A stretch of 64,000 bases of DNA from positions 7,254,001 through 7,318,000 of the forward strand of contig NC_058368.1 of assembly GCF_018350175.1 (NCBI RefSeq), written 5' to 3'. The stretch comes from Felis catus. Lineage: Eukaryota. The notes below the pieces were generated by a model, which saw nothing but the letters and a program-made list of their open reading frames with translations, searched no databases and had not been told where the DNA came from. The first letter of the stretch is position 1. Each line of letters opens with the position of its first letter. Below, piece by piece: positions 3,521 to 60,982 of this stretch. The translations under genes were made by a program, and so were the position numbers.

Positions 3521-3743
3521 GGGGCGCCTGGGTGGCGCAGTCGGTTAAGCGTCCGACTTCAGCTCAGGTCACGATCTCGCAGTCCGTGAGTTCGAGCCCC
3601 GCGTCGGGCTCTGGGCTGATGGCTCGGAGCCTGGAGCCTGTTTCCGATTCTGTGTCTCCCTCTCTCTCTGCCCCTCCCCCGTTCATGCTCTGTCTCTCTC
3701 TGTCCCAAAAATAAATAAAAAACATTGAAAAAAAAATTAAAAA
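3521..3743 (+). mobile_element. Young Can-SINE (SINEC_Fc type)
   Basis: ggggcgcctgggtggcgcagtcggttaagcgtccgact head. TSD aaaaatgatatttct at 3506-3520 and 3744-3758. Confidence 0.95.
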
Positions 3744-3942
3744 AAAAATGATATTTCTGAGTATATTAACTTCTGATGAGAAAAGGAGTTAATATAAATT
3801 AATTATTGATTTTAAAAGTATTCTCCCTCAAACACTATCATCTTCTAACTACCTAATCTGCTCAGGCAATTGTCTTTTCTGGGGGGGGGGGGGGGTAGGG
3901 GGGAGAGACTGAATACATTTTTCATTTAAAAATATCTACTTA

Positions 3943-4156
3943 GGGGCGCCTGGGTGGCGCAGTTGGTTAAGCGTCCGACTTCAGCCAGGTCACGATCTCG
4001 CGGTCCTTGAGTTCGAGCCCCGCATCAGGCTCTGGGCTGATGGCTCAGAGCCTGGAGCCTGTTTCCGATTCTGTGTCTCCCTCTCTCTGCCCCTCCCCCG
4101 TTCATGCTCTGTCTCTCTCTGTCCCAAAAATAAATAAACGTTGAAAAAAAAATTTT
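3943..4156 (+). mobile_element. Young Can-SINE (SINEC_Fc type)
   Basis: Full head, CT tract and A-tail. TSD aaaatatctactta on both sides. Confidence 0.95.
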
Positions 4157-4733
4157 AAAATATCTACTTAAAAATTTTTAAGCCACACATTACACTAATT
4201 TACATCAGTTAATTATAAATCATTGTTAAACTGGTCAAATAAAAAAAAAGTAGCTACATTAGACTTAATATATTTATCCTTTAATTTAAAACATAAATCC
4301 AGAACGTTAAAAGCAGTGATGGGGACCACAAGTGACTACTTTCTAAAGTTTTCTAAAACGGCCATGTATAACTTATAAAAATCAAGTTCATTTGTTTATT
4401 TAAGAAGGCATATTCTTCAAATGAATAGAATAGTGTGCAAAATTGATAAATGAAGGGAAAGAAAGAAAGTAAGAGTACCTACATAGGAATGAGGCATGTG
4501 AGGACAGGTATCCTTAGCTTCTTAGCAAATCTGCAGGTTTCCTACAATTCAATGGTGGGAACGTGACGTGGGCGCAGCATAAAGATCTTCAGGATCTCTT
4601 GGCGTTATTATTCCCTTCCATATGCTAAATATAAATGTCGAGATGAAACTTTCTTGAAAGTGGAAGATTTCAGTACCATATCCCCAGGAAGGCCTTAAAA
4701 GGGAGCGAGTTAGACCAAGAGGATTCCAGAGCT

Positions 4734-22394: not shown

Positions 22395-22697
22395 TTTTTT
22401 TAATTAAAGAAATTTTTTAACATTTACTCATTTTTAAGAGAGACAGAGAGACAGAGCATGAGTGTGGGAGGGCAGAGAGAGAGGGAGACACAGAATCTGA
22501 AGCAGGCTCCAGGCTCCGAGCTGTCAGCACAGAGCCCGACGCGGGGCTCAAACCCACAAACCGTGAGATCATGACCTGAGCGGAAGTCGGATGCTTAACC
22601 GACTGAGCCACCCAGGCACCCCAGAATTTTTTAAATTTTTGAAGTTTTAATTTTTATTTTTTTTGAAGCTCATTTATTTATTTTGAGAGAGAGAGGC

Positions 22698-22732
<35 letters not shown>

Positions 22733-22837
22733 GAATCCCAAGCAGGTTCCACACTGCCAGCACACAGCCTGATGTGGGGCTCAAACTCACAAACCGTGAA
22801 GTTGGACGCTTAAGCTACTCAGCCACCCAGGCTCCCC
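22395..22837 (-). mobile_element. Two tandem antisense Can-SINEs (about 22395-22622 and 22650-22837)
   Basis: Two T-tails, GA tracts and heads. Confidence 0.9.
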
Positions 22838-23713
22838 TAGAAATCTTATTTTTAAAAACAGTAAGCCTTATCTTCCAGAAAGGTATCCTTTCACAAACCC
22901 TAGTGTACTTGAAGAGCAGTTTCTTTTTTGTTAACAGAACGATGTTCTTTTCAAAAGGTTCAAGTAACCGGAAGAGTGATTTTTTACGGAGACATAAAGA
23001 GTGGCGTGCTATGAATAAGCATTTTAAGAACTACTTAAGAATCTACTTTGCTTTCTCTAGCACCAAGTCTGATTTATTGCCTCTGGCAAACCCAGACTAT
23101 AAATAAAGAAAATTCAGTCACATGGTCACACCTAGAAAGACTAAAATCAGACTGAACAACTTCATGGCACATCAACTCTTTACAATAAAGAAAAAGCTAC
23201 CACGATATACTTTAGTTGAAAGTTAACTCTGATGTTTAATAGATTTGATCATCCTTCTGTATCCTGCAAAATAGAGTCACTGAATTTTTTTTAGTCCTTT
23301 CTGAAAAAAAGCTACCAGAGGATTAAAAAAACATCCAGACTCACAGCATAAATCCTGAAAGCTTTCTTAATGTTATATACCTCTCAAAGCTGGAAAACAC
23401 TATTCAAATGTGTTGACAAATGTACTCAATATCTGGAAAAACAAAAGGTCAGAAACCTAGAAAAATTCTTTTTAATTTTTAACAAACTCTGAAATTAGTC
23501 TATTGAAGTCTCAGTGTATCTCATCTATAATGAAAGCGCAAGGCCTAAAATTAGAAAAATTAATGAGGGTAATAAATATTTCATATGAGATCTAATTGTT
23601 ATGGATACTTTGGAAATCTTATTAAACGGCTCTGACAGAATGCCCTGACGAGGCAGGCTCAGCACCTACTGACCACAAGCATCGTACATTTGTAATAAAG
23701 AGACAGAGGATGC

Positions 23714-24474
23714 CTCTCTCTCTGCCCCTCCCCCGTTCATGCTCTGTCTCTCTCTGTCCCAAAAATTAATAAACGTTGAAAAAAAAATTTTTAAAAAAAA
23801 AGGGGCGCCTGGGTGGCGCAGTCGGTTAAGCATCCGACTTCAGCCAGGTCACGATCTCGCGGTCCGGGAGTTCGAGCCCCGCGTCGGGCTCTGGGCTGAT
23901 GGCTCAGAGCCTGGAGCCTGTTTCCGATTCTGTGTCTCCCTCTCTCTCTGCCCCTCCCCCGTTCATGCTCTGTCTCTCTCTGTCCCAAAAATTAATAAAC
24001 GTTGAAAAAAAAATTAAAAAAAAAAGGGGCGCCTGGGTGGCGCAGTCGGTTAAGCGTCCGACTTCAGCCAGGTCACGATCTGGCGGTCCGGGAGTTCGAG
24101 CCCCGCGTCGGGCTCTGGGCTGATGGCTCAGAGCCTGGAGCCTGTTTCCGATTCTGTGTCTCCCTCTCTCTCTGCCCCTCCCCCGTTCATGCTCTGTCTC
24201 TCTCTGTCCCAAAAATTAATAAACGTTGAAAAAAAAAAATTAAAAAAAAAAAGGGGCGCCTGGGTGGCGCAGTCGGTTAAGCGTCCGACTTCAGCCAGGT
24301 CACGATCTCGCGGTCCGGGAGTTCGAGCCCCGCGTCGGGCTCTGGGCTGATGGCTCAGAGCCTGGAGCCTGTTTCCGATTCTGTGTCTCCCTCTCTCTCT
24401 GCCCCTCCCCCGTTCATGCTCTGTCTCTCTCTGTCCCAAAAATTAATAAACGTTGAAAAAAAAAATTTTTAAAA
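23714..24474 (+). mobile_element. Head-to-tail SINEC_Fc concatemer: one 5'-truncated copy plus 3 full copies
   Basis: Units at 23714-23801, 23802-24025, 24026-24252 and 24253-24474. Single 17-bp TSD aaagagacagaggatgc at 23697-23713 and 24475-24491. Confidence 0.95.
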
Positions 24475-24739
24475 AAAGAGACAGAGGATGCAATCACCTG
24501 CATTCGGATACTTGGTTTCTTCCGAGTCATCTTACTTTTTACTACAGCTAGTCCTAGACTACTGATCGTTTCCATATTGGTGTCTCAATATGACACTACC
24601 ATTTGAGAAACCGTCTCCTGGCCTAATTACTCACATCAATCCCCCCCCCCCCCCAAATTAAAACTATTCCATATATTTCAGACCTTTTCCTCTCGTTTCC
24701 ATACGCAAAGTCTCAGAAGTACGTTCAAAATAGTTTGTT

Positions 24740-56667: not shown

Positions 56668-56882
56668 TTTTTTTTTTTTAATGTCTGTTTATTTTTGAGC
56701 GACAGAGAGACAGAACGTGAGCAGGGAAAGGGCAGAGAGAGAGGGAGACACAGAATCCAAAGCAGGCTCCGGGCTCCGAGCTGTCGGCACAGAGCCAGAC
56801 GCGGGGCTCGAACTCAGAAACCGTGAGATCATGACCTGAGCCGAAGTCGGATGCTTAACCAGCTGAGCCACCCAGGCGCCCC
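56668..56882 (-). mobile_element. Can-SINE
   Basis: Antisense full-length copy. Confidence 0.93.
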
Positions 56883-56913
56883 AGACATAAGTTGTTTTTA
56901 AAAATTAAGCAGC

Positions 56914-57145
56914 GGGGCGCCTGGGTGGCGCAGTCGGTTAAGCGTCCGACTTCAGCCAGGTCACGATCTCGCGGTCCGGGAGTTCGAGCCCCGCGTCGGG
57001 CTCTGGGCTGATGGCTCAGAGCCTGGAGCCTGTTTCCAATTCTGTGTCTCCCTCTCTCTCTGCCCCTCCCCCCTTCATGCTCTGTCTCTCTCTGTCCCAA
57101 AAATAAATAAACGTTGAAAAAAAAAATTTTTTTTTAATAAAAAAA
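56914..57145 (+). mobile_element. Young Can-SINE (SINEC_Fc type)
   Basis: TSD taaaaattaagcagc at 56899-56913 and 57146-57160. Confidence 0.95.
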
Positions 57146-60409: not shown

Positions 60410-60982
60410 GGGGCGCCTGGGTGGCTGAGTCCGCCAGGCCTCCGACTTCCACTCAGGTCATGATCTGGAAACTTGAGAGTTCGAGCGCCTCTCTGCTGTC
60501 CGCGTGCAGCTGCTTGGGATTCTCTGTCTTCCTCTCTCTCTGCCCCTCCTGCTTTCGCTCGCGCTCTCTCTCAAAAATAAATATACATAAAATATACACG
60601 TATTTTTATATATTATGTATATAAAGCATATACATAATCTGTAATACAAAAATGTATTTCAAAATATATATATATATATATTTTTTTAAATACAGTACCG
60701 CACTTACCGATGGGAAGGGGGAGGAGGTGTATTTGGAATATTTTTACCTTTTCAGTTTTTTTTTTTTAATTATTTTTTTTTTCAACGTTTATTTTTGGGA
60801 CAGAGAGAGACAGAGCATGAACGGGGGGAGGGGCAGAGAGAGAGGGAGACACAGAATCGGAAACAGGCTCCAGGCTCCGAGCCATCAGCCCAGAGCCCGA
60901 CGCGGGGCTCGAACTCACGGACCTCGAGATCGTGACCTGGCTGAAGTCGGACGCTTAACCGACTGCGCCACCCAGGCGCCCC
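60410..60982. mobile_element. Two Can-SINEs tail-to-tail (60410 to about 60590 + diverged; about 60756-60982 - young)
   Basis: Heads in opposite orientations with an AT-rich spacer. Confidence 0.9.

What the first reader, a model, noticed from the sequence alone, without database searches (positions are those of the whole stretch)
23697..24491. SINE concatemer: about 3.4 head-to-tail copies inside one target-site duplication
Seen: one 5'-truncated and three full SINEC_Fc units are joined tail-to-head with no intervening unique DNA. The whole array is bounded by a single perfect 17-bp TSD (aaagagacagaggatgc). All four units share the tail variant aaaattaataaacg, whereas the other young copies in this window read aaaataaataaa. 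The full bodies differ by only about one substitution each. Inference: one L1-ORF2p target-primed event copied the same RNA repeatedly, by rolling-circle RT on a circularised SINE RNA or by iterative template jumping, or it copied a multimeric read-through transcript. The 5'-truncated outermost unit is what such a process predicts. Alternatives are later unequal crossover from a dimer, serial insertion into A-tails, or assembly error.
Basis: partly seen in the sequence, partly recalled or inferred. Interest (0 to 1): 0.8.

Follow-up and report, generated by a model that had tools for sequence, protein, structure and literature searches.

The report
Tandem SINE array from re-copied template
Three full copies and one shortened copy of a young carnivore SINE sit head-to-tail inside a single insertion scar, and dozens of smaller look-alikes in the same genome suggest the copying enzyme sometimes starts again on the same template instead of finishing.

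Summary
A perfect 17-bp target-site duplication (TSD) brackets one 5'-truncated and three full SINE units. The units are joined tail-to-head with no unique DNA between them, and together they differ by 2 substitutions.

All four units carry a tail variant found in only 36 other places in the 2.43-Gb assembly, against 47,557 for the standard tail. Four independent insertions are therefore excluded.

A scan of the whole assembly changes the context:
- At least 74 other loci hold a 5'-truncated unit followed by a full unit inside one TSD.
- The two units of a pair usually share private variants.
- Simple DNA duplication or nested insertion cannot produce this arrangement.
- It fits reverse transcription that resumes on the same template species within one L1-driven insertion event.
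- One other multi-unit array, of 2.6 units, exists.

Still open is whether all three junctions of the window's array were made in that one event, or whether unequal crossover later added units:
- The unequal homopolymer tails (T5/T2/T2/T5) favour at least two junctions made by the reverse transcriptase.
- The rarity of completed second passes favours later expansion.

Read-level checks could not be run. This is a new variant of a known kind and of moderate interest.

The parts
23697..23713 (+). Left copy of the 17-bp target-site duplication (AAAGAGACAGAGGATGC), directly abutting the truncated unit
   Evidence: exact 17-mer, found only twice in the window, with no extension of the match
23714..23801 (+). 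U0: 5'-truncated SINE unit. It holds 65 nt of body and linker up to GTTG, then the tail A9-T5-A9. It starts at about position 139 of the unit, in the CT-rich stretch
   Evidence: identical to the matching part of U3. At most 1 nt (C) of overlap with the end of the TSD, read
23802..24025 (+). U1: full SINE unit (head GGGGCGCC..., box-A-like motif at 23814, box-B-like motif at 23868), tail A9-T2-A10. It has one private change (G>A at unit position 31, in a CpG)
24026..24252 (+). U2: full SINE unit, tail A11-T2-A11. It has one private change (C>G at unit position 58)
24253..24474 (+). U3: full SINE unit with no private change, tail A10-T5-A4 running into the AAA of the right TSD. On the target-primed model this unit was copied first
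24475..24491 (+). Right copy of the 17-bp target-site duplication

Best explanation
One L1-type target-primed reverse transcription event founded the array.

Proposed sequence of steps:
1. The nicked target primed on the A-tail of a polyadenylated pol III transcript of a young carnivore SINE, and U3 was copied to its 5' end.
2. Instead of joining the upstream target, the reverse transcriptase resumed at the poly(A) end of the same template species. That could be the same RNA molecule or a sister transcript of the same source gene.
3. It did this at least twice and perhaps three times. The last pass aborted at about unit position 139, leaving the truncated U0 next to the left TSD.
4. One of the two T2-tailed middle units may instead be a later DNA duplicate of the other.

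Shown: the anatomy, the common origin of the units, and a genome-wide class of truncated-plus-full pairs made from one template inside one TSD.

Inferred: that the enzyme is L1 ORF2p, that the re-copying was a template jump, and how many junctions were made by reverse transcription.
For: (1) Structure. There is a single perfect 17-bp TSD, direct A-run-to-head junctions and a truncated 5'-most unit.

(2) Common origin. The variant tail has 40 exact hits in the assembly, 4 of them in the array, against 47,557 for the standard tail.

(3) A recurrent class.
- The tail-then-head pattern hits 99 places: 3 in the array and 96 at other loci.
- Of those 96, 84 could be parsed and 68 have one outer TSD of 10 bp or more around the pair.
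- The upstream unit is 5'-truncated in 65 of the 68. The background is 2 truncated among 55 single copies. Fisher P = 1.6e-28.
- For the 51 pairs with 20 nt or more to compare, the truncated unit is closer to its own partner than to the median other partner in 48. Its own partner is best or tied best of 68 in 30 pairs, and uniquely best in 16 (binomial P = 2e-17).
- A sample of 19 of the 90 loci with 15 or more A before a head adds 9 such pairs.

(4) A truncated unit followed by a full unit cannot come from a simple in-place DNA duplication, which gives full then partial. It also cannot come from nested insertion, where the upstream unit would mostly be full length. This is reasoning from the structure.

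(5) Tails.
- In these pairs the homopolymer blocks differ between the two units even when the rest is identical. Only 1 of 9 zero-difference pairs, and 4 of all 68, have the same A-run and the same T-run.
- The array's tails differ in the same way.
- A fresh DNA duplicate would start with identical tails.

(6) Published support.
- ORF2p makes template-jump concatemers in vitro (PMC10830420, passages).
- ORF2p slips on A tracts (PMC3415434, passages).

(7) A possible source gene exists. L031 is full length, carries the variant and a T7 run, and differs from the array body only by 3 changes at CpG sites.
Against: - Second passes almost never reach the head. Only 3 of 68 upstream units are full length, and two of those (L042, L080) look unrelated to their partner. 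Two or three completed extra passes is therefore a far-tail event if passes are independent.
- No locus with exactly two junctions and mixed tails was found. The only other array (L137, 2.6 units) has identical A10-T2 tails in all three units, which fits DNA duplication better than repeated reverse transcription.
- The three internal A-runs (9, 10, 11) are more alike than independent draws would usually be.
- If the same RNA molecule was re-used, T5 versus T2 needs sloppy copying of the U-run. If sister RNAs were used, nothing explains why they came from the same rare source.
- No reads, population data or other felid genomes could be examined.
Confidence: 0.55

Rival explanations
1. An ordinary 1.4-unit founder (truncated unit plus one full unit, made in one insertion event) was later enlarged to 3.4 units purely by unequal crossover or replication slippage between the repeated 3' parts.
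For: - Founders of this kind are common (74 or more loci), while arrays are rare (2 found). That is what a secondary event predicts.
- U0 has a typical founder length.
- The second array, L137, has identical bodies and identical A10-T2 tails, as DNA duplicates would.
- The internal A-runs of 9, 10 and 11 look like copies of one another.
- After a first expansion the shared homology rises from 88 to about 310 bp, so a second step should be easier (inference).
Against: - Crossover within the shared body keeps the first and last tails and copies existing ones, so a T5...T5 founder gives only T5 tails.
- The observed T5/T2/T2/T5 therefore needs an extra 3-nt loss in a short T-run, followed by duplication of that unit.
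- It also needs several A-run changes, in an array that has gathered only 2 substitutions.
- No 2.x array with a mixed history was seen.
Confidence: 0.25
2. Rolling-circle reverse transcription took place on one covalently circular SINE RNA.
For: - It would explain several complete passes, the shared variant and the single TSD.
- The similar internal A-runs and the uniform tails of L137 fit a fixed junction.
Against: - A circle gives the same junction on every turn, yet the junction T-runs are T5, T2 and T2, and the preceding A-runs are 9, 9 and 11.
- In the 68 pairs the two tails are essentially uncorrelated: equal T-runs in 18 pairs, against 13.9 expected by shuffling.
- Most re-copies abort within one unit.
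- No circular SINE RNA was examined.
Confidence: 0.05
3. The array is a retrocopy of a multimeric read-through transcript from a tandem source locus.
For: - T2 tails are too short to stop pol III. A terminator needs about 4 or more T (PMC8466645, passages). An existing array could therefore be transcribed as a multimer.
- 5' truncation of such an RNA would give this layout.
Against: - None of the 36 other carriers of the variant is tandem. Each shows one hit in about 1 kb and has its own flanks.
- Each of the many truncated-plus-full pairs has its own private variants. Each would need its own homogeneous dimeric source, and related full-plus-full pairs are nearly absent.
- Stops crowd just behind the junction (24 of 68 at positions 181-200). 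That suggests a break in the template, not a continuous RNA.
Confidence: 0.03
4. Separate SINE copies inserted one after another into each other's A-tails.
For: - The tail ...TT|AAAA... resembles the L1 endonuclease target (motif quoted in PMC4084570).
- TSDs made only of A would be invisible.
- Felid CanSINE tandem arrays formed by independent insertions are published (PMC4084570, abstract and passages).
- Full-plus-full pairs with different variants do exist in this genome (L141, L155, L042, L080).
Against: - All four units share a variant carried by about 0.08% of such tails. They differ by only 2 substitutions in total.
- Three further hits from that rare source at one spot is of the order of 1e-9.
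- The published arrays have a TSD and distinct SNPs for each unit. This array has neither.
Confidence: 0.02
5. The assembly has the wrong copy number: the real allele has fewer or more units.
For: - Near-identical 225-bp tandem units are a classic source of collapse or expansion.
- No reads could be laid.
Against: - Every unit is marked by its own substitution or tail lengths.
- The whole array is under 800 bp in an assembly of 71 contigs for 2.43 Gb, so long reads would probably span it (inference).
Confidence: 0.05

Closest known systems
Template-jump concatemers made by human LINE-1 ORF2p in vitro (Baldwin et al. 2023, PMC10830420; passages read)
   Same: One cDNA strand continues from the 5' end of one template onto a new template, giving copy 1 joined to copy 2.
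   Different: That is a test-tube result with short templates. Here it is a genomic product of up to 3.4 units of one SINE. The partner template is evidently the same species, not a random one.
Chimeric retrocopies such as U6/L1 and tripartite pseudogenes, attributed to template switching during LINE reverse transcription (PMC4476161 and PMC2104539, search listing and abstracts only; Alu/L1 chimeras in bioRxiv 10.1101/2025.02.02.635956, passages)
   Same: Several RNA copies are fused directly inside one TSD, with the 3'-most copied first.
   Different: Those join different RNAs. Here the same SINE is repeated head-to-tail, with its poly(A) at every junction.
Tandem B2-B2 dimers in mouse and Dip multimers of up to eight units in jerboa (Kramerov laboratory 2021, PMC8466645; passages)
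   Same: Head-to-tail multimers of tRNA-derived T+ SINEs that carry AATAAA signals, a T-run terminator and an A-tail. The authors leave the origin open: insertion into a tail, or dimeric templates.
   Different: Those multimers were set aside, not dissected. Here TSDs, truncation and private variants point to a third origin, re-copying of one template in one event. The frequency is also far lower, at roughly 0.2% of young copies.
CanSINE tandem arrays in Felidae formed by repeated insertion at existing SINE loci (Walters-Conte et al. 2014, PMC4084570; abstract and passages)
   Same: The same SINE superfamily and host family, with adjacent copies in tandem.
   Different: In the published cases each unit has its own TSD and distinct SNPs, so the insertions were independent. 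This array has one TSD and shared private variants.
Tandem Alu insertions (El-Sawy and Deininger 2005; seen only as reference 52 in PMC3415434, paper not read)
   Same: SINE copies lying head-to-tail through their A-tails.
   Different: [quoted passage not shown] The content could not be checked here.

Membership tests
   The motifs TGGCGCAGTCGG and GAGTTCGAGCCC are present in each full unit. The consensus they are compared with is recalled, not computed.
Carnivore tRNA-derived T+ SINE (CanSINE) | CT-rich stretch, AATAAA signal(s), T-run terminator or its remnant, then an A-tail | tested here: met
   All four features are present in every unit. The same layout is seen in the six young single copies of the window. 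It matches the T+ description, which lists Can among the families with TC-rich regions (PMC8466645).
Carnivore tRNA-derived T+ SINE (CanSINE) | Head recognisable as tRNA-like | tested here: inconclusive
   ARAGORN calls no tRNA in 23600-24600. SINE heads are often too diverged for it. No repeat library such as Repbase or Dfam was available.
L1-mediated target-primed insertion | TSD of about 7-20 bp, A-rich 3' end at the TSD, A/T-rich nick site | tested here: met
   The TSD is 17 bp and the A-tail abuts the right TSD. The site reads ...GTAAT|AAAG..., an imperfect TT|AAAA-like target. The motif is as quoted in PMC4084570.
Single-event re-copy product (template-jump concatemer) | One TSD round all units, with no TSD or unique DNA at internal junctions | tested here: met
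Single-event re-copy product (template-jump concatemer) | Units derive from one template species | tested here: met
   The shared variant is at about 0.08% genome-wide. There are 2 substitutions among the units.
Single-event re-copy product (template-jump concatemer) | The 5'-most (last-copied) unit is truncated | tested here: met
   U0 starts at about unit position 139. The same holds in 65 of 68 pairs elsewhere.
Single-event re-copy product (template-jump concatemer) | No intermediate unit numbers among individuals or sister species | not testable with these tools
No relatives of this genome are held.
Serial nested insertions (published felid CanSINE tandem arrays) | Each unit has its own TSD and its own diagnostic SNPs | tested here: not met
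   There is one outer TSD only, and all units share the rare variant. The criteria are from PMC4084570.
Tandem repeat expanded by unequal crossover (minisatellite-like) | New units begin as exact copies, tails included; allele-size ladder in populations | tested here: inconclusive
   Bodies are near-identical, but all four tails differ. The ladder could not be tested. The second array, L137, does have uniform tails.

The most novel reading that the evidence does not exclude
After finishing a SINE RNA, the L1 reverse transcriptase re-engages the poly(A) end of the same template, or of a sister transcript, in a measurable fraction of insertions. The rough figure is 1 in several hundred young copies.

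This would leave a so far undescribed class of '1.x-mer' insertions: a truncated re-copy followed by a full unit inside one TSD. Occasionally it would yield multi-unit arrays such as this one.

That would be an in-genome footprint of same-template jumping. It would also offer a direct birth route for dimeric and multimeric SINEs and for SINE-derived tandem repeats.
Probability: 0.4. Interest if true: 0.7.

Novelty: new variant of a known kind. Interest (0 to 1): 0.55.

Why it matters
Head-to-tail SINE multimers are abundant in some mammals and their origin is openly unresolved (PMC8466645). Template jumping by ORF2p has been shown only in vitro (PMC10830420).

This locus, together with the 74 or more truncated-plus-full pairs found around the genome, gives sequence criteria that separate re-copying in one event from nested insertion. 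The criteria are one TSD, a truncated upstream unit and shared private variants.

If confirmed, the finding would:
- supply a natural record of how often and how far the enzyme continues after a jump;
- provide a route by which monomeric SINEs become dimers or small satellites;
- warn SINE-based phylogenetics and repeat annotation that such pairs are one event, not two.

The T2-tailed inner units also lack a working pol III terminator. The array could therefore be read through as a multimer. This is an inference.

Tried and rejected
- **Reads.** No read evidence for copy number, empty alleles or other species was obtained.
- **tRNA scan.** ARAGORN found no tRNA-like gene in the array.
- **Earlier notes of this scan.** Three look-ups returned nothing relevant.
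- **Genome pattern.** A first junction pattern was rejected as too long and was shortened. A wider pattern allowing CpG-decayed heads gave 108 hits. No further pair of junctions one unit apart appears among the 100 places listed.
- **Papers.**
  - Five full-text searches turned up no description of truncated-plus-full pairs made from one template, nor of a multi-unit SINE array inside one TSD, in their listings (15-25 shown of up to 4,238) or in the passages opened. A sixth only looked up the family name.
  - Two more searches failed on term syntax.
  - The library lacks most subscription journals, so this is not proof of absence.
- **T5 versus T2 as proof of separate RNA molecules.** Dropped as proof. 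The internal A-run upstream of the terminator is just as uncorrelated between the two units of a pair (19 of 68 equal, against 16.5 by shuffling). The copying process itself, or fast homopolymer change, must therefore vary these runs.
- **The variant as a marker of one small subfamily.** Rejected. Carriers sit on at least two body backgrounds, G or T at unit position 66, so the variant arose more than once.

Full report
**1. What is in the window**

The 17-mer AAAGAGACAGAGGATGC stands at 23697-23713 and again at 24475-24491. It occurs nowhere else in the 64 kb, and the match cannot be extended on either side.

Between the two copies lie four units of one SINE, joined tail-to-head:
- U0 (23714-23801): 88 nt, lacking the first roughly 138 nt.
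- U1 (23802-24025).
- U2 (24026-24252).
- U3 (24253-24474).

Tandem Repeats Finder gives period 224-227 and 3.3-3.4 copies at 97% matches.

From head to GTTG (203 nt), U1 and U2 each carry one private substitution and U3 carries none. U0 equals U3 over its 65 nt.

Each full unit shows the following (the consensus motifs are recalled):
- box-A-like and box-B-like motifs;
- a CT-rich stretch;
- an AATAAA signal;
- an A-run, a short T-run and a final A-run.

This is the layout of T+ SINEs, whose pol III transcripts stop in the T-run and are then polyadenylated. The carnivore family is listed among them (PMC8466645, passages). The name SINEC_Fc is a library label that I could not test.

**2. The tails**

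After GTTG the four units read:
- U0: A9-T5-A9
- U1: A9-T2-A10
- U2: A11-T2-A11
- U3: A10-T5-A4, running into the AAA of the TSD

The six other young single copies in the window have the same plan. Their T-runs are 2, 4, 2, 2 and 9, plus one irregular. Five of them show their own TSD in that output (none was read for the copy at 60764-60982). None has the AATTAATAAA variant.

Every unit of the array therefore carries a complete transcript-type 3' end.

**3. The units have one origin**

In the window's own assembly (2.43 Gb, 71 contigs), the variant tail has 40 exact hits: 4 in the array and 36 elsewhere. The standard tail has 47,557 hits.

All 36 others are single, full-length copies with their own flanks. 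They differ from the array body at 2 or more sites. They sit on at least two body backgrounds, so the variant arose more than once.

Four independent insertions of so rare a form at one spot can be dismissed. No tandem source locus exists in this assembly.

One carrier, L031, is a possible source gene. It is full length, has a T7 run, and differs only by three changes at CpG sites.

**4. A genome-wide class**

*First pattern.* A pattern for a tail directly abutting a head found 99 places: the 3 in the array and 96 single junctions elsewhere. I fetched all 96.
- 84 could be parsed.
- 68 have one outer TSD of 10 bp or more, abutting the start of the upstream unit and the tail of the downstream full unit.
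- 16 fell short of that rule and 12 had tails my parser could not read. These 28 are not counted further.
- One counted pair (L135) is clearly mis-parsed and was left in.

*Truncation.*
- The upstream unit is 5'-truncated in 65 of the 68. Starts cluster at positions 111-130 (19 pairs) and 181-200 (24 pairs).
- By contrast, only 2 of 55 single copies are truncated: 0 of 36, and 2 of the 19 window copies that keep their 3' end. Fisher P = 1.6e-28.

*Relatedness of the two units.* For the 51 pairs with 20 nt or more to compare:
- The truncated unit is closer to its own partner than to the median other partner in 48, and farther in 2.
- Its own partner is best or tied best among 68 in 30 pairs.
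- It is uniquely best in 16 pairs, where 0.75 is expected.
- By eye, the pairs share rare linker variants.

*Second pattern.* A pattern of 15 or more A before a head gave 90 hits, at least 3 of them already in the first list. I fetched a sample of 19:
- 9 are further truncated-plus-full pairs sharing variants (8 with a TSD found by the script, 1 read by eye).
- 2 are full-plus-full pairs with different variants.
- 8 are SINEs lying next to other A-runs.

**5. What the class means**

A truncated unit followed by a full unit is not what an in-place DNA duplication gives. That would be full then partial, or two whole copies.

Nested insertion into an older tail would find mostly full-length upstream units with unrelated variants. 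The few full-plus-full pairs (L042, L080, L141, L155) look exactly like that.

The class fits one target-primed event. The enzyme reaches the 5' end of the SINE RNA, resumes at a poly(A) end of the same template species, soon aborts, and joins the target. Forty-two of 68 junctions show no microhomology.

ORF2p makes such concatemers in vitro (PMC10830420).

Whether the second pass uses the same RNA molecule, a sister transcript or the first cDNA during second-strand synthesis cannot be told from sequence:
- The two tails of a pair are nearly uncorrelated. T-runs are equal in 18 of 68 against 13.9 by shuffling. A-runs are equal in 19 of 68 against 16.5.
- Only 1 of 9 pairs that are otherwise identical has the same A-run and T-run.
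- ORF2p slippage on A tracts is documented (PMC3415434).
- Transcripts are known to carry fewer U than the terminator has T (PMC8466645).

**6. The window's array in that light**

Its founder is a typical member of the class. U0 has an ordinary length and no meaningful microhomology.

The array is exceptional in having three junctions. Only one other multi-unit array turned up, at L137:
- 2.6 units inside a 13-15-bp TSD;
- identical bodies sharing three private variants;
- tails all A10-T2.

A wider pattern found no more arrays among the places listed.

*For making the extra units by reverse transcription:*
- All four tails differ in just the blocks that differ between the two units of one-event pairs.
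- Crossover from a T5...T5 founder cannot yield T2 units without an extra 3-nt loss in a short T-run.
- The array has gathered only 2 substitutions.

*For later DNA expansion:*
- Completed second passes are very rare (at most 1-3 of 68).
- Arrays are rare relative to founders.
- The internal A-runs are alike (9, 10, 11).
- The L137 array has uniform tails.

A mixed history is also possible: two junctions made by reverse transcription, then duplication of the T2 unit.

My odds:
- about 0.55 for at least two junctions made by reverse transcription in one event;
- 0.25 for a 1.4-unit founder enlarged only at the DNA level;
- 0.05 each for a circular RNA template and for an assembly error;
- 0.03 for a multimeric transcript;
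- 0.02 for serial insertion.

**7. Relation to what is known**

- Felid CanSINE tandem arrays are in print, but as independent insertions with separate TSDs and SNPs (PMC4084570).
- B2 and Dip multimers are abundant, and their origin is left open (PMC8466645).
- Chimeric retrocopies show template switching between different RNAs (listings).
- Five searches showed no description of truncated-plus-full pairs from one template, nor of a multi-unit SINE array in one TSD, in their listings or in the passages I opened. The library lacks most subscription journals.

I therefore rate the finding a new variant of a known kind.

**8. Limits**

- No other felid genome was available.
- The census uses exact patterns, so it undercounts older or mutated junctions.
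- Names of motifs and of the SINE family are recalled.

Noticed in passing
L137 808-1447 (G000:C47, about 34,498,107-34,498,746): A second multi-unit SINE array: 2.6 units (154, 232 and 228 nt) inside one TSD ((AA)GACTGGGAGAGGT). The bodies are identical and share three private variants. All tails are A10-T2, followed by A15, A17 and A13. The right flank looked LINE-like by eye, but this was not tested.
   Followed up: partly
L041-L136 and L138-L156 (own assembly): At least 74 loci (65 of the 68 with a clear outer TSD, plus 9 of a sample of 19) hold a 5'-truncated SINE unit followed directly by a full unit inside one TSD. The two units usually share private variants. Truncation points cluster at unit positions 111-130 and 181-200.
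   Followed up: yes
L031 (G000:C37, about 26,912,999): A single full-length SINE carrying the array's rare tail variant and a T7 run. It differs from the array body only by three changes at CpG sites, which makes it a possible source gene of the array's template.
   Followed up: partly
L042, L080, L141, L155: Full-plus-full head-to-tail pairs inside one outer TSD, whose two units carry different private variants. These look like ordinary nested insertions into an A-tail and serve as a contrast to the truncated-plus-full class.
   Followed up: partly
window 3521-4160; 22413-22837; 56669-57131: Other SINE neighbours in the window. There are two young same-strand copies about 200 bp apart, each with its own TSD. 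There are two older copies adjacent on the minus strand. There is an inverted head-to-head pair about 30 bp apart. In all, 26 SINE matches were found in 64 kb.
   Followed up: partly
tails of single copies (window; L005-L040): By eye, the T-run between the two A-runs looks two-peaked (mostly T2-T3, a second group of T6-T9, some with none). The long-T copies are often followed by AATAAA-type repeats. This was not analysed statistically.
   Followed up: no
window 24640-24655: A run of about 15 C, some 150 bp downstream of the array. It is unexplained and probably a simple homopolymer.
   Followed up: no
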